DNA of 39,733 nucleotides from a virus. The position numbers and the translations under genes are program-made. How positions within the stretch are numbered: the first letter of the stretch is position 1; each line of letters begins with the position of its first letter. This document shows, piece after piece, positions 3,546 through 29,131 of this stretch. A model generated the notes under the pieces. That model was not told where the DNA came from and did no database searches. It worked only from the letters and a program-made list of their open reading frames with translations. The stretch is from positions 1 to 39,733 of the IMG/VR virus record IMGVR_UViG_3300045988_046012; one strand, 5' to 3'.

Positions 3546-4871
3546 TTAAATATAGCCAGCTAATTCAAAATTTATTTCGCCGTCGTTGCTGACGGAGATT
3601 TTTTTAACGGTACGCCTCCAAAACTCACGACGCTCTGACGGCTCTAAACTGCCGTAAACATCCATCGTGGATTTTAATGCATCTACATCTATTTGCTCCT
3701 TTTCTTCCGGCTCCGGGGCTTCTAGCTGCTTCCTGAGCGATGTGTAGTCCTTTGCGTATACGTCGCGCTCTATCAAGTCGGACAGGTACAGATCTTTTAG
3801 TTTTTTCATTTTGCGCTTTATCGCCGCCTTGTCTACAGTTTGCTGATTGGATGCGTTCTGTTGGGCGATCTCTACATTATAGTTGATGCATCCGGATATG
3901 ATGTGATCTACCATGTACTGCTCCAGATCCTTTTCGCGCTCCCGGCGGCGATGGACGCAGGAGCGGCCTGCATAGCTCGGACACTTGTAGTACACGTATT
4001 CGCCGCCGTGGACGTGGGACATGGTGACGGACAGGCGACGGCCACACTCGGCGCAGAACACTATGCCGGTGAATAGATATATATGCTTTTGCGTAAAATC
4101 TCCGCTGTGACGGGTGGAACGTTCTGCCATGATGGACTGAGCAAGGGCAAAATCCTGCGGTGGGACGATGGGCGGGTATAACTGCTCACCGTTATCCGCA
4201 ACGCCAATATACCGCTTATTTTTGAGCATCTGCTTTGTGTTTTTGTAGGAGCGGGTGATACCATACTCGGATAGGAGATAGCGCCCAGTTGAGGTGACAG
4301 ACTGAGTGGCGATAAAGTGCCTGAACACATCTCGGACAACAGGGGCGGTTTCTGGGTCTTCCGTTAGCTTCCCTTTGACGATTTTTAGTCCAAGCGGTTG
4401 CGTGCCGTGATGGCACAAACCATTCTCCCGCTTATTTTTGTTTATGGTTTTGATTCGCTCAGATGTACGGTCAGCCTCTGACTCCGCGACCGATAGCATA
4501 ATGTTGACCTTAAATCTTCCGGCGCTGGTTTCTGTCTCATACTCCTCCTCAATCGTTTTCCAGCAGACGCGGTGCTCGTCCAAAACGTCCTGAACTTTAT
4601 AATATTCTTTGACATTTCTGAACCACCGGTCTAGCTTGGTAAATACAATCATCTCAATTTTACCAGCTCTAACATCGTTCAAAAGCCGCTGCAAATCCGG
4701 ACGCTTTGATGCTGGCTTTCTGGCTGATACTCCGGCGTCAACGTACACGCCCACTATCGTATGATGGTTTTCGTTTGCCCATTTTTTCAAATTTTCCTGC
4801 TGCACCCCGATTGACAAGCCGTGTATGGCCTGCTCCTCTGTGGACACTCGCGCATACAGCGCCACACGCAT
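3546..4871 (-). CDS. int: Large serine recombinase (phage integrase)
   Basis: N-terminal resolvase motif MRVALYARVSTEEQ, recombinase domain, Cys-rich zinc-ribbon region (CAECGRRL ... YYKCPS), C-terminal coiled coil; 441 aa. Confidence 0.9.
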   Translation of the reverse strand: MRVALYARVSTEEQAIHGLSIGVQQENLKKWANENHHTIVGVYVDAGVSARKPASKRPDLQRLLNDVRAGKIEMIVFTKLDRWFRNVKEYYKVQDVLDEHRVCWKTIEEEYETETSAGRFKVNIMLSVAESEADRTSERIKTINKNKRENGLCHHGTQPLGLKIVKGKLTEDPETAPVVRDVFRHFIATQSVTSTGRYLLSEYGITRSYKNTKQMLKNKRYIGVADNGEQLYPPIVPPQDFALAQSIMAERSTRHSGDFTQKHIYLFTGIVFCAECGRRLSVTMSHVHGGEYVYYKCPSYAGRSCVHRRREREKDLEQYMVDHIISGCINYNVEIAQQNASNQQTVDKAAIKRKMKKLKDLYLSDLIERDVYAKDYTSLRKQLEAPEPEEKEQIDVDALKSTMDVYGSLEPSERREFWRRTVKKISVSNDGEINFELAGYI

Positions 4872-5036: not shown

Positions 5037-5552
5037 TCATTGCTGGATTATCCCAATGTTTGGGTGCATGCGATCCCATATCAAATAAGACAGTAGCCCG
5101 GCAGCAACCAATATAAGCAGCAACGTGGCGATAGCTGCCCAGGTTATCATGATCTTTATCGTCTTAGACTTTCGCTTTATTTCTGCCTGCTGCTCCTCTA
5201 TGGTGGATTGCATGTGACTGATTCGCTCGGTGCGGTCTACGATCCCCTGCTGACGCTCTTTGTCTATCTCTTCGCGGGCAGCCAGCATAACCCTTAGTGC
5301 CTCTATGTTTTCCTGCGGTACGGTGTCTGGATTATATGCATCTCCGATGACCGCACGGGCAATTGCCTGGATCGTTGCAGGCCTGCATTGCTCGGCTGAT
5401 TCTATCGGAGCTGTCATGACCTTCTGGACGGTGGCTTTGCACACAGACTCCCCAGCTAATTCACAAGCATCTACAATCTGCTGGTATGTAATTCCCTTTT
5501 TATCTCTCATGGTTCGGATTTTCCGAATCAACTCGGCTTGATTCGGGGACAC
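5037..5552 (-). CDS. Membrane-anchored HTH regulator (N-terminal HTH, coiled coil, C-terminal TM helix)
   Basis: ORF track; KKGITYQQIVDACELAGESVCKATVQKV is HTH-like; hydrophobic C-terminus ITWAAIATLLLILVAAGLLSYLIW. Confidence 0.75.
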   Translation of the reverse strand: MSPNQAELIRKIRTMRDKKGITYQQIVDACELAGESVCKATVQKVMTAPIESAEQCRPATIQAIARAVIGDAYNPDTVPQENIEALRVMLAAREEIDKERQQGIVDRTERISHMQSTIEEQQAEIKRKSKTIKIMITWAAIATLLLILVAAGLLSYLIWDRMHPNIGIIQQ

Positions 5553-6724: not shown

Positions 6725-7612
6725 TTAACATTCCATCATGGATGCTTCCCGAAACTTAGAGGGAGGCATCCATTTTGTTTTCGCTTGGATTCGTCTGTTA
6801 TTGTAGTAGTCAATATACTCCGCAATTGTATTCTGAAAGGCTTCAAAGGACGGATACTCCTTCTCAAAGCCATAGAACATTTCGTTTTTCAGTCTGCCAA
6901 AGAATGTTTCCATGATGCAATTATCATAGCAGTTGCCCTTCCGGGACATGGATTGAATTACACCGTGATTCGCAAGTTCATTCCTATAAAACTCATGCTG
7001 GTATTGCCAGCCCTGATCCGAGTGCATGATCAGCCCCTGCACGGAAGGAAATCGCTGAAACGCTTTCGCCAGCATATCCTTGATCTGCTCCAGGTTTGGA
7101 CTGAGGGAAAGATTATAAGAAATGATCTCGTTTGTGTTCATGTCCAAAATCGGAGAGAGATAGCATTTGCCCCATGAAAGATTGAATTGTGAAACATCGG
7201 TTGTCCACTTTTGCAGCGGCCTCTTTGTACTGAAATCTCTATTGATGATATTAGCAGCAACTTTGCCAACTTCGCCCTTATAAGAATGATATTTTTCTTT
7301 CGGGCGCTTCCCCAGCAAGCCCAACTGGTGCATGATCCGCTGAACGCGTTTATGATTGACCTGATGACCGCGGCTCAGAAGCGCCTGATGCACCCGCCTT
7401 ACACCGTATCTTCCCTTGTTTTCGGCAAAAATGGACGATATTTCTGCGGATAACTCACTATTCCGCTCTTGAACCTTGTCTTTCTTGCTGATTTCATAGT
7501 AGTAGGTCGATCTGGAAAGGCCTAATGCTTCCAGCAAGTATTTCAGGGCATATCCTTCTTCACGGAGTTCTTTGACGAGCGTTGCTTTTTCGCCTTGAGT
7601 TGCTCTGCCCAT
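6725..7612 (-). CDS. IS3-family transposase OrfB (DDE / rve integrase core)
   Basis: ORF track; motifs WTTDVS, HSDQGWQY, NCYDNCIMETFFGRLKNE are typical of IS3 OrfB; probably made as an OrfAB fusion by -1 frameshift. Confidence 0.9.
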   Translation of the reverse strand: MGRATQGEKATLVKELREEGYALKYLLEALGLSRSTYYYEISKKDKVQERNSELSAEISSIFAENKGRYGVRRVHQALLSRGHQVNHKRVQRIMHQLGLLGKRPKEKYHSYKGEVGKVAANIINRDFSTKRPLQKWTTDVSQFNLSWGKCYLSPILDMNTNEIISYNLSLSPNLEQIKDMLAKAFQRFPSVQGLIMHSDQGWQYQHEFYRNELANHGVIQSMSRKGNCYDNCIMETFFGRLKNEMFYGFEKEYPSFEAFQNTIAEYIDYYNNRRIQAKTKWMPPSKFREASMMEC

Positions 7613-15247: not shown

Positions 15248-15791
15248 GCAACGGCATCGCCTGGAAACGTGCCGAGCTGATAAGCAATGGCATAGAATAG
15301 CCAAGACGTGCTAGGCAACGGAATGGCACTGCTTCCAAACGCAATGGAGATGATCGGAAGACCAATGCCGAGCAAAGGAAATGCGCAACCTAGATACGCG
15401 CTGAATCGCAAAGGCATTGAATTGAACCGCTTAGAATCGCAACTGCAATGGAATTGCATGGGAAAGCGGCGAAAAGCTACGAGCGGCAATGGAAATGTTG
15501 TGAAGAGAAGGGCATAGCAATGGCATAGCATAGCAAAGCAGAGAGGCGATATGCAACGGAACGGCACAGCGAGCCGCAAGGGAGAAGCCCAGAGACCCAC
15601 AGAGAAGCCAAGAGAAGCATAGAGAAGCAAAGCGAAGGAAGTGCATAGAACCGTTATGCATGGCAATACTTTGATTGGCAATGGATTGGCTGGGCAATGA
15701 ACTGAATTGCAATGGAATAGCATGGATATGGTTAGCAATGGAGTAGAGAAGCAATGCGGTGAACACAAAATTACCAAATGGAGGAATCAAA
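15248..15791 (+). other. 544-nt purine-rich non-coding spacer with iterated GCAAYGG motifs (candidate ncRNA or iteron origin)
   Basis: No credible ORF on either strand. 8 GCAATGG, 2 GCAACGG and 3 GCAATNN, all in the same orientation. Counted lines are 62-75% purine. No terminator at either flank. Confidence 0.7.
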
Positions 15792-16121
15792 ATGAAAACA
15801 ATCACAATTAACGAGGTGGGCTGGGACTTGCACCTCCTGTATCGGGAGGCAATCCAGACTAAGGCACGCCGGGGGCTATTTGGCTATATGCTCCGGACGG
15901 GGCGGGCTGACAACCTGATTTTCGGCGGCGCTTTCCAGCTGCTCAAACAGCTGGAGCCGGTCTGGGGTAAGGAGGCTTACAGCCTCCGCTCCGAGACTCA
16001 AGCGGCGCGTGATATTATTGCAGTCGCCGAGGTTGCTCTTGCGGGTGGCTTTGACCGGTTTGCGCTGTCCCGCCGGGAGATGCAGCGGACGATTAAGGCG
16101 CTGAACGATATCGAGATTTAG
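15792..16121 (+). CDS. Hypothetical protein
   Basis: GGAGG 15780-15784 before ATG 15792 (internal Met of ORF 15759..16121). Confidence 0.7.
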   Translation: MKTITINEVGWDLHLLYREAIQTKARRGLFGYMLRTGRADNLIFGGAFQLLKQLEPVWGKEAYSLRSETQAARDIIAVAEVALAGGFDRFALSRREMQRTIKALNDIEI

Positions 16122-16137
16122 TGAGGAGAGGATAAAG

Positions 16138-16455
16138 ATGGCTGATTACATTGACCGGCAGGCCGCAATTGCGGCACTGAGGAAATTTGCGGAGGAATGC
16201 AAGGATAGTACGGAGGCTGCAACTGCGGCGGCTATGGCGATTTCGGTGATTTCGAGGCTGCCGGGGCCGTGGGCGAGCGTGGGGGATAAACCACCACCCA
16301 AAAGACTCGGCGTGGCAGTAATCGTGCGTTATGGTAATTGTACATTTGTGAGCCACGCATGGTTAAACAGCTATGGTAAATGGGTCGGCATCCCGGCTGG
16401 TGGAACCGTCAGCAGTTGGGCCCCCATGCCGGATGTGCCGGAGGTGGCAACATGA
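16138..16455 (+). CDS. Hypothetical protein (DUF551-like C-terminus)
   Basis: SD GAGGAGAGG upstream; C-terminal W/P-rich end SSWAPMPDVPE. Confidence 0.7.
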   Translation: MADYIDRQAAIAALRKFAEECKDSTEAATAAAMAISVISRLPGPWASVGDKPPPKRLGVAVIVRYGNCTFVSHAWLNSYGKWVGIPAGGTVSSWAPMPDVPEVAT

Positions 16456-16556
16456 CAAATATTGTCTATAACACGGACTGCATGGTTGGGCTGCGGGAAT
16501 ACCCAGACAAGTATTTTGACCTTGCGGTTAATGAGATTCGGGAGGCGGTGAAGTGA
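16452..16556 (+). pseudogene. 34-codon stub matching the N-terminus of an N6A/N4C DNA methyltransferase
   Basis: MTNIVYNTDCMVGLREYPDKYFDLAV matches the usual lead-in to the DPPY motif, but continues NEIREAVK-stop. Confidence 0.6.
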
Positions 16557-18148
16557 TTGCCCACCTTGGAGATATCACAAAAATTGACGGTCTCAATGCC
16601 CCGATTGTGGATTGTGTAATTGGAGGATCGCCGTGTCAGGACCTGTCGGTCGCCGGGAAGCGTGCTGGTTTGGCCGGCAAGCGTTCCGGTCTCTACATGG
16701 AGCAAATCAGATTGGTCAAAGAAATGAGGGAGCAGGATGAACGAAATGGACGGACAGGTGAGTCTATTCGGCCCAGATACATGGTCTGGGAAAACGTCCC
16801 CAGAGCGTTCAGCTCCAATAAAGGGAAAGACTTTGCCGCAGTCATCGAAGAAGCAATCAAAATCGTCGAACCGGAAGCCCCCGGTGTTGAAGTCCCTGCA
16901 AAGGGGTGGCCTACCTGGGGTGGCTACCACGATGGAGTGGCAGGACGATGGAGCTTGGCTTGGCGAGTGCTTGATGCGCAATACTGGGGAGTCGCCCAGC
17001 GCCGCCGTAGAATCGCGCTTGTCGTGGATTTTGGAGGAGACACCGCAGGAGAAATACTATTTGAGCGCCAAAGCGTGTGCTGGGATATTGACACGAGCAG
17101 AACGGAGGGGCAAGGAACTCCCGATGGAGTTGCAGGCTGCATTAAAGATACAGTCTGGTGCATTAAAGGCAACGCAATAGACCGAAACACACAGCAGAAC
17201 GGTGGCTTTGTGAGAGAAGACGTATCTTATACCTTAGATGCTACTGATCACCATGGCGTTTTTGCTCCTGGAATGTGTGCTGCGTTCAAACTCGGAAATT
17301 CTGAGAAAGCAAGGTCAATCGGGTATAGCGTTGAATGCGCACCCACTCTAAATGCGGAATGCGGAGGGAACAAACCTGCAATATTGGATATGACTCATGC
17401 TTGCGATGTGATCCGAGATTGTGGTCAAATTGTACCAACTCTCCAGAGCAGGATGGGTACTGGAGGGAATCAAGTTCCGCTTGTATTTGATGACGCAAGC
17501 AAGCCCAATATTAAATGTTATAACCCATGGGATTCCCAATCTGCAAGAATATATGATGCAGATGGTATTTTTCATTCTCTCAATGCGAACGAAAATGGCG
17601 GGCAGAGTAGAGATTCCATATTTTATAAGAAATCCGTAGATAACATTGAATATAGTCCTGATATTAGTAGAACTTTGTTAGCTAAAAGCGCTTGTTCAAT
17701 GGCCTATGATCTTGAAACATATTGTGTTCAAAATAAATATGTTAGAAGATTAACCCCGCTTGAATGTGAAAGACTTCAAGGGTTCCCCGATGGATGGACT
17801 GATATCGGAGATTACATAGACAGCAACGGACGAAAGCGGAAAACATCGGATAGCTCCAGATATAAAGCACTTGGAAATTCCATTGCGATTCCTCCGTGGA
17901 CGTGGGTACTGAATCGGATTTGCGGGAACTACGACAGACCGGCCACTATGGCGAGTTTATTCGACGGAATCGGAGGGTTCCCTCTTATCTGGGAAAGGAT
18001 CAATGGTGAGGGCTCTTGCCTTTGGGCTTCTGAGATTGAAGAATTCCCAATGGCAGTTACACGGAAACGATTTGGAGGTATGCCGCGGACAGGTATGGAT
18101 ACGGGGAAGGCCGCACAGAAAGGCCGGAGAGGAGTATTGAGGAAATGA
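16553..18148 (+). CDS. C5-cytosine DNA methyltransferase with permuted motif order (III/IV-VI-VIII-TRD-IX-X, then I-II)
   Basis: GDITKI, GGSPCQDLSVAG (IV), ENV (VI), QRRRR (VIII), RRLTPLECERLQGFP (IX), GNSIAIP (X), then in frame MASLFDGIGGF (I) and WASEIEEF (II). GTG 16553 has GGAGG 7 nt upstream. Confidence 0.75.
   Translation: MIAHLGDITKIDGLNAPIVDCVIGGSPCQDLSVAGKRAGLAGKRSGLYMEQIRLVKEMREQDERNGRTGESIRPRYMVWENVPRAFSSNKGKDFAAVIEEAIKIVEPEAPGVEVPAKGWPTWGGYHDGVAGRWSLAWRVLDAQYWGVAQRRRRIALVVDFGGDTAGEILFERQSVCWDIDTSRTEGQGTPDGVAGCIKDTVWCIKGNAIDRNTQQNGGFVREDVSYTLDATDHHGVFAPGMCAAFKLGNSEKARSIGYSVECAPTLNAECGGNKPAILDMTHACDVIRDCGQIVPTLQSRMGTGGNQVPLVFDDASKPNIKCYNPWDSQSARIYDADGIFHSLNANENGGQSRDSIFYKKSVDNIEYSPDISRTLLAKSACSMAYDLETYCVQNKYVRRLTPLECERLQGFPDGWTDIGDYIDSNGRKRKTSDSSRYKALGNSIAIPPWTWVLNRICGNYDRPATMASLFDGIGGFPLIWERINGEGSCLWASEIEEFPMAVTRKRFGGMPRTGMDTGKAAQKGRRGVLRK
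16737..17180 (+). CDS. Candidate overlapping gene (+1 frame) embedded in the C5-MTase gene, 147 aa
   Basis: ORF track; GAGGG 6 nt before ATG 16737; non-random sequence ending KYYLSAKACAGILTRAERRGKELPMELQAAL. Confidence 0.4.
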   Translation: MNEMDGQVSLFGPDTWSGKTSPERSAPIKGKTLPQSSKKQSKSSNRKPPVLKSLQRGGLPGVATTMEWQDDGAWLGECLMRNTGESPSAAVESRLSWILEETPQEKYYLSAKACAGILTRAERRGKELPMELQAALKIQSGALKATQ

Positions 18149-28162: not shown

Positions 28163-28744
28163 ATGAGCAAATTTACTGTGATCCCTGAGAACACATTTTC
28201 TGAGTTGCAGCTCAACGCTGGTGTGCTGCTTAAGAAGTTCACCCCGGCAACCGCCGCCGCTCCTGCTGACGAGGACATCATCTGCGCGACTACAGGCGGC
28301 ATTACCGTGAGCTGCACCCCGACATTTTCTGACCTTGGCGAGGACGTCGACAACTGCCCTAAAAATACCAAGGAGCTCAAACATCTTGATGGTTGGGAAT
28401 GCAAGATGTCCACAACTGCACTGGGCACAAGCCCGGCAAACATTAAGCTCTCTCTCGGTTGCGCAGATGTCGATGGTACGGACACCACCAAGATTGTACC
28501 TCGAGTAGATTTGGCGCAGAGCGATTTCAGCGACATCTGGTGGGTTGGTGACCGTGCGGATGGCGGCCTGGTTGCAATCCAGCTCAAAAATGCACTTTCC
28601 ACTGGAGGTTTCTCCCTCAAAACCACCGACAACGGAAAGGGCCAGATCACCGTGGAGCTTACCGGTCATGTATCCATCAGCAAGCAGAGCGAGGTGCCTA
28701 TGGTATTTTATAGCGCCGCGGCTGCACCGGGCATCGGAGGTTAA
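28163..28744 (+). CDS. Major tail protein
   Basis: AAGGAGG upstream; 193 aa, upstream of the chaperone pair and tape measure. Confidence 0.75.
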   Translation: MSKFTVIPENTFSELQLNAGVLLKKFTPATAAAPADEDIICATTGGITVSCTPTFSDLGEDVDNCPKNTKELKHLDGWECKMSTTALGTSPANIKLSLGCADVDGTDTTKIVPRVDLAQSDFSDIWWVGDRADGGLVAIQLKNALSTGGFSLKTTDNGKGQITVELTGHVSISKQSEVPMVFYSAAAAPGIGG

Positions 28745-28747
28745 AAA

Positions 28748-29131
28748 ATGAAACTGTCTGAGTATCGCGGTGATGATGCACTGGAAGTCCTGGCGGAGTT
28801 GATTGAGCCCGCCGTGGAAATCCTTGCTGATGCTGACATTGCCGCCGCGTGGCGGGACAAAAACCCCAATAAAACTAGAGGGCAGAAGCAGCTGAAAGCC
28901 GTGTCTATTGCGATTAAAAAGCATAAAGAAGCGGTGATTGCCATTCTCGCCGCGCTGGATCACGAGACCCCGGACGAGTACCGGGAGAAAATCAATGTTG
29001 TGACGCTGCCGAAAAAGCTGCTGGAAGTGCTCAACGACAAGGATTTGCGCAATTTTTTTACCTCGCAGGAGCAGACCAAGGACGAACCCTCTGGCTCTGC
29101 TTCGGCGAGTACCGAGGTATCCGGACAGTAA
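28748..29131 (+). CDS. Tail assembly chaperone (G-like)
   Basis: Acidic 127 aa before the tape measure gene; contains a T7 slippery run near the 3' end. Confidence 0.8.
   Translation: MKLSEYRGDDALEVLAELIEPAVEILADADIAAAWRDKNPNKTRGQKQLKAVSIAIKKHKEAVIAILAALDHETPDEYREKINVVTLPKKLLEVLNDKDLRNFFTSQEQTKDEPSGSASASTEVSGQ
29053..29059 (+). promoter_or_regulatory. Programmed -1 frameshift site T TTT TTT giving a G-T fusion chaperone (28748..29391)
   Basis: AAT TTT TTT ACC in the zero frame; the -1 frame is open from the slip site through 29391 (checked codon by codon). Confidence 0.7.

What the first reader, a model, noticed from the sequence alone, without database searches (positions are those of the whole stretch)
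15248..15791. 544-nt purine-rich non-coding spacer saturated with same-orientation GCAAYGG motifs in the replication module
Seen in sequence:
- The 544 nt between the TAA of 14651..15247 and the SD/ATG of 15792..16121 contain no credible ORF. Plus-strand frames are broken by stops. The two long minus-strand ORFs are low-complexity and lack an SD.
- The plus strand is strongly purine-biased. The three 60-nt lines I counted gave 37/60, 43/60 and 45/60 A+G.
- GCAATGG occurs 8 times (15284, 15341, 15445, 15486, 15517, 15678, 15709, 15735). GCAACGG occurs twice (15315, 15553). GCAATNN occurs three more times (15663, 15694, 15751). All are in one orientation, whereas a given 7-mer is expected well under once in 544 nt.
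- The 3' part (15662-15760) forms roughly 15-16-bp degenerate tandem units. Short hairpins sit at 15444-15458 and 15641-15661.
- No terminator flanks the region, so it is probably transcribed within the early operon.

This is too long and too patterned for an ordinary intergenic gap. Candidate roles are an iteron or R-loop origin, a multi-site protein-binding (sponge or scaffold) RNA, or a precursor processed by the upstream RAMP-like protein.
Basis: seen in the sequence. Interest (0 to 1): 0.85.

Follow-up and report, generated by a model that had tools for sequence, protein, structure and literature searches.

The report
Phage VIPR guide-RNA repeat array
The "spacer" is most likely the guide-RNA array of a VIPR system, a phage-borne, CRISPR-like RNA-guided DNA-recognition system first described in two 2026 preprints, paired with the small Cas7-like protein gene just upstream; it is real and striking but belongs to a kind that is now known.

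Summary
Region 15248-15762 is a phase-coherent lattice of about 101 units with a period of 5.18 nt. The units are 84 pentamers G-[C/A]-N-N-N and 16 hexamers, mostly GCAAYG.

The upstream 198-aa gene (14651-15247) encodes a minimal RAMP/Cas7-fold protein. It is homologous to the characterised Vipr protein of Escherichia phage SUSP1 (hhalign probability 85%, E 6e-6). A co-oriented array with a 5.1-5.2 nt period lies next to the homologous gene in 141 of 152 related loci, down to 44% protein identity and in MAGs labelled as several phyla. No other neighbouring gene is conserved.

This fits VIPR systems (bioRxiv 2026), in which one Vipr protomer binds each pentanucleotide repeat of a vrRNA and the variable bases pair with target DNA.

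This clade differs from the characterised type II:
- Only one G per repeat is conserved, and the two residues that read the first G in SUSP1 are replaced.
- Hexamers punctuate the array about every 31 nt.
- The arrays are long (100-730 nt).
- I found no family-wide tail and no conserved accessory gene.

An origin or iteron role is not supported. Expression, processing and targets are untested, and my target searches found nothing. Verdict: a new member of a known kind, possibly a distinct variant.

The parts
14651..15247 (+). vipr-like gene: a 198-aa minimal RAMP (Cas7-fold) protein with an RRM core, a helical insertion (residues ~22-54), a thumb hairpin (~123-147) and a G-rich loop G179-I-G-Q-W-R-N-S-G-M-G189
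   Evidence: - AF2 model: pLDDT 76.6, pTM 0.74.
- Foldseek PDB top hits are Cas7 of type VII and Csm3 of type III, E ~1e-7, TM ~0.5.
- The family profile hits type VII Cas7, E 2.5e-6.
- hhalign to SUSP1 Vipr: probability 85%, E 6.3e-6, 169 columns.
- No Pfam, PHROG or NCBIfam family.
- More than 7,800 relatives and 1,742 clusters at 50% identity.
15248..15762 (+). putative vrRNA array: about 101 tandem units (84 pentamers G-[C/A]-N-N-N, 16 hexamers, 1 heptamer) with a mean period of 5.18 nt. It starts at the first base after the vipr stop codon and the lattice fades by ~15762-15775, just before the next gene's ribosome-binding site.
   Evidence: - Spectral peak at 5.18 nt.
- Autocorrelation.
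- Dynamic-programming decoding.
- Base composition by lattice phase.
- The same architecture occurs in 141 of 152 related loci.
15248..15741 (+). hexamer punctuation marks. Eleven are GCAAYG followed by G, starting at 15248, 15284, 15315, 15341, 15445, 15486, 15517, 15553, 15678, 15709 and 15735. Degenerate copies such as GCAAAG lie at 15372 and 15408. Spacing is mostly 26, 31 or 36 nt.
   Evidence: - Motif positions and decoding.
- In 71 non-redundant arrays the hexamer-to-hexamer gaps are 26 nt (172), 31 nt (207) and 36 nt (123).
- The 31-nt consensus is G-C-r-A-n-G-G-M-A followed by GMNNN units.
15641..15661 (+). local hairpin (TGCATA / GAACCGT / TATGCA), followed by a short break in the lattice (ACTTT). 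It may be a vrRNA boundary or tail; its status is uncertain.
   Evidence: - Read from the sequence.
- Identical in L001 and L002.
- The region as a whole folds no better than shuffled sequence (z +0.39).
15780..16121 (+). GGAGG ribosome-binding site (15780-15784) and an unrelated 109-aa gene (15792-16121). It is not part of the cassette.
   Evidence: A homologue follows the array only in the three closest relatives, L001-L003.

Best explanation
Region 15248-15762 is the guide-RNA (vrRNA) array of a VIPR system, and gene 14651-15247 is its Vipr protein.

Proposed mechanism:
1. The array is transcribed with the gene from the early operon.
2. Protomers of the small Cas7-like protein bind the RNA one per pentamer. 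They read the invariant G (and the following C/A) through the thumb and the G-rich loop, and flip those bases out.
3. The resulting helical ribonucleoprotein filament displays the variable bases of each unit.
4. Those bases pair in a gapped, non-contiguous register with double-stranded DNA of a target, probably a competing phage or other mobile element, and silence it.

The hexamers (GCRANG + G, about every 31 nt) are punctuation. They are either boundaries or processing sites of short guides, or one extra nucleotide per roughly six-subunit helical turn.

Shown here: the fold and homology of the protein, the lattice, its family-wide linkage and co-orientation with the gene, and the position-specific constraint.

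Inferred from the published SUSP1 and P. fulva systems: transcription, one protomer per repeat, DNA targeting and the biological role.
For: 1. Protein.
- RAMP/Cas7 fold and a profile hit to type VII Cas7.
- Full-length hhalign match to the ORF at KT454805 28474-29061(-), probability 85%, E 6.3e-6. I identified that ORF as SUSP1 Vipr because its H17, E71, M72, K82, K88, R138, D177, W178 and R179 match the residue numbers in the cryo-EM paper. One residue does not fit: the paper's T175 reads as V175 in this ORF.
- The SUSP1 flank shows the published GGYNN repeats and a tail hairpin.

2. Array.
- Sharp 5.18-nt period, 101 units, G at unit position 1 in 93% of units.

3. Linkage.
- Of 152 loci holding a homologue (44-99% identity; MAGs labelled Clostridia, Eggerthellaceae, Planctomycetota, Chloroflexota and others), 126 have an array with a 5.1-5.2 nt period directly downstream and 15 have one directly upstream.
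- In every one of these the array is purine-rich with G>C on the gene's coding strand.
- No other gene is conserved next to it.

4. Constraint.
- Between homologous arrays, substitutions are 2.7% at the G, 8.7% at position 2 and 10-17% at positions 3-5. The commonest indel length is 5 nt.

5. Fit to the single-G code.
- Across 46 diverse members, the residues equivalent to SUSP1 H17 and D177 (which read G1) are T/S (41 of 46) and Q (44 of 46).
- The equivalents of W178 (stacks on G2) and R179 are W (46 of 46) and R (45 of 46).

6. Literature.
- VIPR is a ~20 kDa phage RAMP plus tandem pentanucleotide vrRNAs.
- The alternative repeats NNNGG, YNNNG and NNNNG, and 'staggered' arrays, are reported (10.64898/2026.04.26.720920).
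Against: - The canonical GGY/NN consensus is absent. Only one G is conserved, so the pairing code is unknown for this clade.
- No family-wide structured 3' tail was found, and no vap accessory gene is conserved.
- With about 100 units in a continuous tract, the arrays are far longer than the 9-16 repeats of a characterised vrRNA.
- I found no promoter-like or terminator-like sites for separate vrRNAs and no hammerhead ribozymes.
- No natural target was found under any tested rule (dinucleotide or trinucleotide readout, skips of 0-3). The 1.1-Mb local set gave nothing above shuffled controls, and four exact-pattern scans of IMG/VR gave 0-3 hits per scan, none extending beyond the nine units searched.
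- hhalign probability is 85%, not above 95%.
- No expression data are available.
Confidence: 0.8

Rival explanations
1. RNP decoy or anti-defence element. The Cas7-like protein coats the long purine-rich RNA to form a filament that guides nothing. Instead it sequesters or mimics host factors, for example type III/I CRISPR backbone components or another RNA-binding defence protein, in the manner of RNA anti-CRISPRs.
For: - The arrays are very long and continuous (100-730 nt).
- They are purine-rich, with A over-represented at position 3.
- They lack recognisable tails.
- No target was found.
- The cassette is carried by phages in an early operon.
Against: - In interior units, positions 3-5 are nearly equiprobable (information content under 0.13 bit) and evolve fastest. 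That is expected of information-carrying guide positions, not of a decoy.
- The protein is homologous to a Vipr shown to guide DNA binding.
- The lysines aligned with SUSP1 K88 and its neighbourhood are conserved: K100 is K or R in 39 of 46 members, and K101 is K in 41 of 46.
Confidence: 0.08
2. DNA-level element. The array is a replication origin or iteron field, or a centromere-like site. It would be bound as duplex or unwound DNA by the RAMP-like protein or by the replisome organiser.
For: - In this window it lies among recombination and replication genes.
- All repeats point the same way.
- The period of 5.18 nt is half of 10.36 bp, close to the B-DNA helical repeat.
Against: - The cassette moves independently of replication genes: the window's initiator, loader and DUF1064 genes co-occur with it in only 2-3 of 152 loci.
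- Hexamer spacing behaves as a 26/31/36-nt super-repeat with independent variation. Successive gaps correlate at r = +0.13 and variance grows with distance, so it is not a correction to a fixed helical lattice.
- There is no AT-rich unwinding element, and cumulative GC skew does not change direction across 13000-18000.
- Unit sizes of 5-6 nt are unlike 17-22-bp iterons.
- The partner protein has an RNA-binding RAMP fold.
Confidence: 0.05
3. Neutral, slippage-generated minisatellite with no function. It merely tends to sit next to this gene.
For: - Length varies between close relatives (427, 544, 605 and 735 nt).
- Indels are mostly multiples of the unit length.
Against: - The lattice, the G-M signature, the hexamer punctuation and the co-orientation persist down to 44% protein identity and across MAGs labelled as different phyla, while the actual sequences diverge.
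- The substitution rate is position-specific.
- Phage genomes are compact.
Confidence: 0.02

Closest known systems
VIPR systems (Viral Interference Programmable Repeat), best characterised as type II in Escherichia phage SUSP1 and a Pseudomonas fulva prophage (bioRxiv 10.64898/2026.04.26.720920 and 10.64898/2026.04.26.720927)
   Same: - Phage-borne cassette with a small (~20 kDa) single-RRM RAMP that has a thumb, a G-loop and a helical bundle.
- A long flanking intergenic tract of tandem pentanucleotide repeats on the same strand, with conserved G-containing positions alternating with variable ones.
- The G-loop W-R pair is conserved.
- No CRISPR array and no other cas genes.
- The authors list the alternative repeats NNNGG, YNNNG and NNNNG, and 'staggered' arrays.
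   Different: - The repeat is G-[C/A]-N-N-N (one conserved G, about three variable bases) rather than GGY-NN.
- The residues that read G1 in SUSP1 (H17, D177) are T/S and Q here.
- Arrays are continuous tracts of 100-730 nt (20-140 units) punctuated about every 31 nt by a GCRANG hexamer. SUSP1 has ~100-nt vrRNAs of 9-16 strict pentamers, each ending in a structured tail (compare).
- No conserved vap gene.
- The hosts are mostly gut Clostridia.
- I could not see the paper's figures or data tables, so I cannot assign one of its seven types.
Class 1 CRISPR backbone filaments (Cas7/Csm3/Cmr4/Csf2 on crRNA)
   Same: - Same protein fold and the same way of holding RNA: thumb, G-rich loop and periodic base flipping.
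- These are the best structural matches.
   Different: - The period is 5 nt (mean 5.17), not 6 nt.
- The RNA itself carries the periodic signature.
- There is no repeat-spacer CRISPR array, no Cas5/Cas6/large subunit and no adaptation genes.
- The RAMP gene stands alone in phages.
TRAP-trp leader and similar ring or filament RNA-binding proteins that read short motifs at 5-6-nt spacing (from general knowledge)
   Same: A protein oligomer would read a short conserved motif repeated every 5-6 nt on an otherwise unstructured RNA. The RNA here shows no fold stability beyond shuffled sequence.
   Different: - The protein fold is unrelated.
- TRAP reads 11 (G/U)AG triplets in a regulatory leader. 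It has neither a 100-unit array nor variable, information-carrying positions.

Membership tests
VIPR (Vipr protein + vrRNA) | Small stand-alone RAMP protein (~20 kDa) with a single RRM core, a thumb, a glycine-rich loop and a helical bundle | tested here: met
   - 198 aa.
- The AF2 model shows b1, a helical insertion at 22-54, helix 71-85, a long hairpin at 123-147, helix 162-178 and a G-loop at 179-189.
- Foldseek top hits are Cas7/Csm3.
- The BFVD top hit is a phage protein named 'Cas system-associated RAMP superfamily protein', TM 0.88.
VIPR (Vipr protein + vrRNA) | Homology to an experimentally characterised Vipr (SUSP1) | tested here: met
   - hhalign of the family profile A3 against SUSP1 ORF 28474-29061(-): probability 85%, E 6.3e-6, 169 aligned columns spanning both proteins.
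- The ORF's residue numbers match nine of the contact residues named in the paper; T175 reads as V175.
- Support is moderate, not overwhelming.
VIPR (Vipr protein + vrRNA) | Flanking intergenic tandem pentanucleotide repeats (YNNGG, or the related NNNGG / YNNNG / NNNNG the authors accept), at least 4 units, next to the vipr gene | tested here: met
   - 101 units with a period of 5.18 nt, starting at the stop codon.
- Present in 141 of 152 loci, always co-oriented with the gene.
- The canonical GGY is NOT present. The consensus G-M-N-N-N corresponds to the authors' YNNNG/NNNNG classes.
VIPR (Vipr protein + vrRNA) | Conserved motif positions are constrained while the intervening positions vary between related vrRNAs | tested here: met
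   - Substitution frequency between homologous arrays: G 2.7%, position 2 8.7%, positions 3-5 10.1%, 12.9% and 16.6%.
- Interior units have information content under 0.13 bit at positions 3-5.
- The pairs compared are not phylogenetically independent.
VIPR (Vipr protein + vrRNA) | Each vrRNA ends in an invariant structured 3' tail (type II) | tested here: inconclusive
   - No family-wide tail was seen.
- One local hairpin lies at 15641-15661 and is conserved in L001 and L002.
- The whole-region fold z-score is +0.39.
- No ribozyme or other Rfam family was found.
- The authors describe other architectures without such tails.
VIPR (Vipr protein + vrRNA) | Accessory vap gene next to vipr (described as 'typical', not universal) | tested here: not met
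   - No neighbouring gene family is shared by more than 6 of 78 diverse loci, apart from the vipr-like gene itself and two families that look like spurious ORFs over the arrays (one of them not individually checked).
- The window's neighbours recur in only 2-3 loci.
- A 66-aa HTH-like ORF follows the array in 26 of 152 loci but not in this window.
VIPR (Vipr protein + vrRNA) | vrRNA is expressed and co-purifies with Vipr, with one protomer per repeat | not testable with these tools
   Needs RNA sequencing, pull-down or cryo-EM.
VIPR (Vipr protein + vrRNA) | Variable bases specify a DNA target in a gapped register (1-nt skip rule), with natural targets in competing mobile elements | tested here: inconclusive
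   - Exact gapped k-mer searches used 72 arrays (71 non-redundant loci plus the window's own array) against 1.1 Mb (the window plus 152 loci, arrays masked). Readouts at positions 4-5, 3-4, 2-3 or 3-5 with skips of 0-3 gave nothing above shuffled controls, except residual array self-similarity at a 5-nt period.
- Four IMG/VR scans with 18 specified bases gave 0-3 hits per scan, none extending beyond the nine units searched.
- The rule and the guide boundaries for this clade are unknown, so the power is low.
Class 1 CRISPR-Cas (Cas7 backbone) | CRISPR array of 25-40-nt direct repeats separated by unique spacers, other cas genes, and 6-nt crRNA periodicity | tested here: not met
   - Repeat analysis found only the 5-nt lattice and its multiples.
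- Period is 5.18 nt.
- The neighbours are phage recombination, replication and methylase genes.
- The PADLOC library gave only a marginal Cas6 G-loop hit, E 0.06.
Iteron-type replication origin | 17-22-bp iterons bound by the cognate initiator, linked to the initiator gene, with an adjacent AT-rich unwinding element | tested here: not met
   - Units are 5-6 nt.
- The linkage is to the RAMP gene, not to the initiator.
- GC content is 0.41-0.53 with no AT-rich block, and cumulative GC skew is monotonic.
CsrA/RsmA-type sponge RNA | Multiple GGA motifs presented in hairpin loops of a structured sRNA | tested here: not met
   - The conserved dinucleotide is G-C/A, and G is rare at position 2 (3-4%).
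- There is no structure beyond shuffled sequence.
- No Rfam match.

The most novel reading that the evidence does not exclude
This large clade has more than 7,800 proteins in the metagenome search. It is mostly found in gut Clostridia phages, but also in MAGs labelled Eggerthellaceae, Planctomycetota and Chloroflexota. It may be a VIPR architecture that has not been characterised, with four distinctive features:
- A single-G code. The G1-reading H and D residues are replaced family-wide by T/S and Q.
- About three variable bases per pentamer, which implies a pairing rule different from the published NN / 1-nt-skip code.
- Arrays of up to about 140 units, punctuated every 26, 31 or 36 nt by a roughly 9-nt conserved mark, GCRANG-GMA. 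This could mean either a tail-less array processed into ~31-nt mini-guides whose lengths step by 5 nt, or very long filaments with one extra nucleotide per roughly six-subunit helical turn.
- No accessory gene.
Probability: 0.35. Interest if true: 0.65.

Novelty: new member of a known kind. Interest (0 to 1): 0.5.

Why it matters
VIPR systems were reported only in 2026, as a new and very compact mode of RNA-guided DNA recognition and as a possible ancestor of CRISPR RAMPs. So far they have been characterised in one type, from E. coli and Pseudomonas phages.

This window shows that a very abundant family of temperate phages of human and animal gut Clostridia carries a self-contained two-part version: one protein gene plus one array.

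Its repeat grammar is simple enough to decode computationally: G-M-NNN units with a hexamer mark every ~31 nt. The amino-acid changes line up with the loss of one recognised G.

If the variable bases are guides, these arrays are a large, unread record of phage-phage or phage-host conflicts in the gut. The single-G, three-variable-base version could also define a second recognition code with higher information density per protomer.

For genome annotation, the 5.17-nt spectral signature is a cheap and specific detector for such loci. It also explains the spurious antisense ORFs that arise over them.

Tried and rejected
- Protein coding on either strand: rejected. There is no 3-nt periodicity, the motif falls in all three frames, and the minus-strand ORFs are composition artefacts.
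- tRNA, tmRNA or a known RNA family: none.
- Stable RNA or ssDNA fold: none, z +0.39 and -0.43.
- CsrA sponge idea (GGA motifs): dropped, because position 2 of the unit is C or A.
- Half-helical-turn dsDNA lattice (5.18 x 2 = 10.36 bp): tested through the statistics of hexamer spacing. Successive gaps are not anticorrelated and variance grows with distance. The long-range coherence therefore comes from a 26/31/36-nt super-repeat, not from a physical helical constraint.
- Origin or iteron: rejected on linkage.
- Co-conserved accessory gene: none found. A 66-aa HTH-like ORF occurs in only a subclade.
- Target prediction: the local gapped k-mer searches and four IMG/VR pattern scans were negative or at chance level.
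- Technical dead ends: the search for related loci with the diverse alignment A3 failed for lack of a conserved stretch, so A1 was used. The first array-extent heuristic was too crude and was replaced.
- The paper's figures and data tables were not available as text, so no VIPR type could be assigned.
Full report
**1. What is in the sequence**

The 544 nt between the TAA stop of 14651-15247 and the ATG at 15792 were read directly.
An eleventh starts at 15248. All eleven are on the + strand.
- The whole 39.7-kb window has only 30 matches on both strands, against 17.4 expected from shuffles.
- The + strand is 65.8% purine.
- There is no tRNA and no Rfam family at gathering or relaxed thresholds.
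- No + strand promoter-like or terminator-like site was found in or next to the region.

**2. The real repeat is a pentamer lattice**

Base autocorrelation peaks at lags 5, 10, 15/16, 21, 26, 31 and 36.
- The power spectrum has one dominant peak at 5.18 nt, with power 17. The flanking genes peak at 3.0 nt.
- In 400-nt windows scanned for the 5.0-5.4 nt band, the highest-scoring windows are those overlapping 15100-15800.
- Phase-binned composition gives G, then C/G/A, then A-rich positions.

Dynamic-programming decoding splits 15248-15775 into 101 units.
- 84 are pentamers, 16 are hexamers and one is a heptamer.
- G is at position 1 in 93% of units and C or A at position 2 in 93%.
- The hexamers are mostly GCAAYG and fall roughly every sixth unit.
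- The RNA folds no better than shuffled sequence on either strand (z +0.39 and -0.43).

**3. The array travels with the upstream gene**

The 198-aa product of 14651-15247 has no Pfam, PHROG or NCBIfam match. It nevertheless belongs to a very large family, with more than 7,800 hits and 1,742 clusters at 50% identity.

I collected 80 IMG/VR loci and 72 loci from GTDB genomes.
- Protein identity to the query ranges from 44% to 99%.
- The GTDB records are mostly Oscillospiraceae, Lachnospiraceae and other Clostridia MAGs.
- Others are labelled Eggerthella, Collinsella, Pirellulales, Sedimentisphaerales, Dehalococcoidia, Anaerolineales and Verrucomicrobiota.

In 141 of the 152 loci, a stretch with a 5.10-5.20 nt period lies right beside the gene.
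- 126 lie downstream and 15 upstream.
- The other 11 have none, or one shorter than 100 nt.
- All 141 arrays are purine-rich with G>C on the gene's coding strand.

Nothing else is conserved beside the gene.
- In the diverse loci the only other recurrent 'families' look like antisense artefacts of the arrays.
- The window's own neighbours accompany the cassette in only 2-3 loci.

The cassette is therefore a mobile two-part module, and its position in this phage's replication region is incidental.

The window itself is a temperate siphophage or prophage.
- It carries a serine integrase, a repressor, Erf, NinB and SSB genes.
- It also has a DnaD-like initiator, methyltransferases, terminase, portal, major head and tape-measure genes.

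**4. Grammar of the arrays**

In 71 non-redundant arrays (4,845 units), 82% of units are pentamers and 17% are hexamers.
- The pentamer consensus is G(0.97)-C/A(0.87)-N-N-N.
- The hexamer consensus is G-C-[A/G]-A-N-G.
- Hexamer-to-hexamer spacing is sharply peaked: 26 nt (172), 31 nt (207), 36 nt (123). That is 5, 6 or 7 units, with a standard deviation of 1.86 units against about 5.4 for random placement.
- Successive gaps are not anticorrelated (r = +0.13) and variance grows with distance. The structure is a super-repeat of about 31 nt, not a correction to a duplex-DNA helical lattice.

The 31-nt consensus (n = 207) is G-C-r-A-n-G | G-M-A-n-n | G-M-n-n-n (three times) | G-M-a-n-n.
- The interior variable positions are almost equiprobable.
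- The same design holds in the most distant members. Examples are GCAAAG + GCNNN in the Planctomycetota-labelled loci and GCGAAG/GCGACG in the Eggerthella locus.

Between homologous arrays the substitution rate by unit position is as follows.

| Unit position | Substitutions |
|---|---|
| 1 (G) | 2.7% |
| 2 (C/A) | 8.7% |
| 3 | 10.1% |
| 4 | 12.9% |
| 5 | 16.6% |

The commonest indel length is 5 nt. The indels among the window, L001 and L002 are mostly multiples of the unit length (36, 10 and 16 nt).

**5. The protein**

The AlphaFold2 model (pLDDT 76.6, pTM 0.74) shows these elements:
- an RRM core;
- a helical insertion;
- a long beta-hairpin, the thumb;
- a C-terminal G-rich loop.

Structure and profile searches agree.
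- Foldseek against the PDB returns only CRISPR backbone RAMPs at the top: type VII Cas7, Csm3, Cmr4 and Csf2, with E down to 1e-7 and TM about 0.5.
- A profile of 46 diverse members hits type VII Cas7 by sequence, E 2.5e-6.
- The best BFVD match is a gut phage protein that its depositors named 'Cas system-associated RAMP superfamily protein', TM 0.88.

**6. Identification**

A literature search found two 2026 preprints on VIPR (Viral Interference Programmable Repeat) systems: 10.64898/2026.04.26.720920 and 10.64898/2026.04.26.720927.

According to these papers:
- A ~20 kDa phage-encoded RAMP, Vipr, is flanked by long intergenic regions that encode vrRNAs.
- Each vrRNA has 9-16 tandem YNNGG pentanucleotide repeats followed by a tail.
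- One protomer binds each repeat, forming a right-handed helical filament with six subunits per turn in the binary complex.
- The GGY bases are flipped out, and the NN bases pair with double-stranded DNA while skipping one target base.
- The natural targets are competing phages and satellites.
- Seven types exist, with alternative repeats NNNGG, YNNNG and NNNNG. Some have 'staggered', ribozyme-interspersed or single-vrRNA architectures.

I fetched phage SUSP1 (KT454805).
- ORF 28474-29061(-) carries H17, E71, M72, K82, K88, R138, D177, W178 and R179 exactly as numbered in the structure paper. One residue differs: the paper's T175 reads as V175.
- The ORF's flank shows GGYNN repeats followed by a hairpin tail.
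- hhalign of my family profile against this protein gives probability 85%, E 6.3e-6, over 169 columns spanning both proteins.

In the alignment the SUSP1 G-loop G-D177-W178-R179 corresponds to G-Q182-W183-R184 here, and H17 corresponds to T17. The table gives the counts across 46 diverse members.

| SUSP1 residue | Role in SUSP1 | Position here | Residue in 46 members |
|---|---|---|---|
| H17 | reads G1 | 17 | T or S in 41 |
| D177 | reads G1 | 182 | Q in 44 |
| W178 | stacks on G2 | 183 | W in 46 |
| R179 | contacts Y3 | 184 | R in 45 |

This matches an RNA in which only one G per repeat is conserved. I read the repeat as the authors' YNNNG/NNNNG class. In that reading the conserved G is the equivalent of G2 and the following C/A is the equivalent of Y3. 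This mapping is an inference.

**7. Mechanism proposed**

The array is co-transcribed with the gene. Protomers load one per pentamer on the G-M signature, and the filament displays the variable bases for gapped pairing to a DNA target.

The hexamer mark with its neighbouring unit (GCRANG-GMA) could be one of three things:
- a boundary or processing site of ~31-nt guides whose lengths step by 5 nt;
- the published 'staggered' arrangement;
- one extra nucleotide per roughly six-subunit turn.

I cannot decide among these without RNA ends.

**8. What failed or remains open**

- No conserved vap gene was found. A 66-aa HTH-like ORF follows the array in 26 loci but not in this window.
- No family-wide tail was found.
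- No target was found. The local searches used 72 arrays against 1.1 Mb under twelve dinucleotide rules and three trinucleotide rules. They gave nothing above shuffled controls, except array self-similarity at a 5-nt target period.
- Four exact IMG/VR scans with 18 specified bases each gave 0, 1, 3 and 1 hits. None extended beyond the nine units searched.
- These tests have little power, because the rule and the guide boundaries are unknown.
- The paper's figures and data tables were not readable. I therefore cannot say which of the seven types this is, or whether the ~31-nt punctuation is what the authors call staggered arrays.
- Only four unannotated records in the phage GenBank collection carry the protein.

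**9. Verdict**

The origin idea was not.
- The element belongs to a kind described in 2026, so it is not categorically new.
- It is a member, and possibly a distinct variant, from a very abundant gut-phage clade.
- Its grammar is well defined, and the protein substitutions are consistent with that grammar.

Noticed in passing
window 16380-18148 (+): The 531-aa C5 DNA methyltransferase ORF (phrog_116) has motif IV (GSPCQD) near its N-terminus and motif I (LFDGIGGF) near its C-terminus. It also has a low-GC stretch at 17500-17800 (GC about 0.35) and a 58-aa ORF fragment just upstream. It may be a permuted, fused or disrupted methylase.
   Followed up: no
window 6725-7612 (-): An IS-type transposase (phrog_157, E 7e-97) sits inside the lysogeny module, between the serine integrase (3546-4871) and the repressor (8173-8565).
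   Followed up: no
L020 ~5097-5297 and 25 other loci (e.g. L054, L006, L083): A 66-aa HTH-like ORF (MEHPAYRDNLEQILAFTGG...) lies 36-243 nt downstream of the array in 25 of its 26 loci (26 of 152 loci in all), on the same strand. It is absent from the window. It may be an accessory (vap-like) gene of a subclade.
   Followed up: partly
window 15169-15777 (-) and 15431-15805 (-); equivalent ORFs in 26 other loci: Long stop-free antisense ORFs run across the arrays because the + strand is T-poor. They cluster as a spurious protein 'family' and could be mis-annotated as genes.
   Followed up: partly
L144 4180-4500: About 12 tandem copies of a 27-nt coding repeat (GCTGCATCTGCTACCGGC...) lie in a gene downstream of that locus's vipr homologue. 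The repeat is unrelated to the pentamer lattice; it appeared as a 3.38-nt harmonic.
   Followed up: partly
L023 and L058 (IMGVR_UViG_3300045988_041897, 66,889 nt): One contig holds two copies of the vipr gene and array 44.7 kb apart. This is probably a concatemeric or over-assembled phage genome.
   Followed up: no
window 14638-14653 and 15777-15794: The vipr-like gene and the gene after the array have nearly identical ribosome-binding contexts (ATGGAGGAATCA followed by 2-3 nt and ATG). This suggests that the cassette was inserted, or duplicated its flank, at a gene boundary.
   Followed up: no
window 13000-13200 (+): A strongly A/G-rich stretch (AT skew 0.6) lies inside the DnaD-like replication-initiator gene and encodes a charged EAEEGRRKKEEG linker. 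Minus-strand terminator-like hairpins were predicted there at 13170-13196.
   Followed up: no
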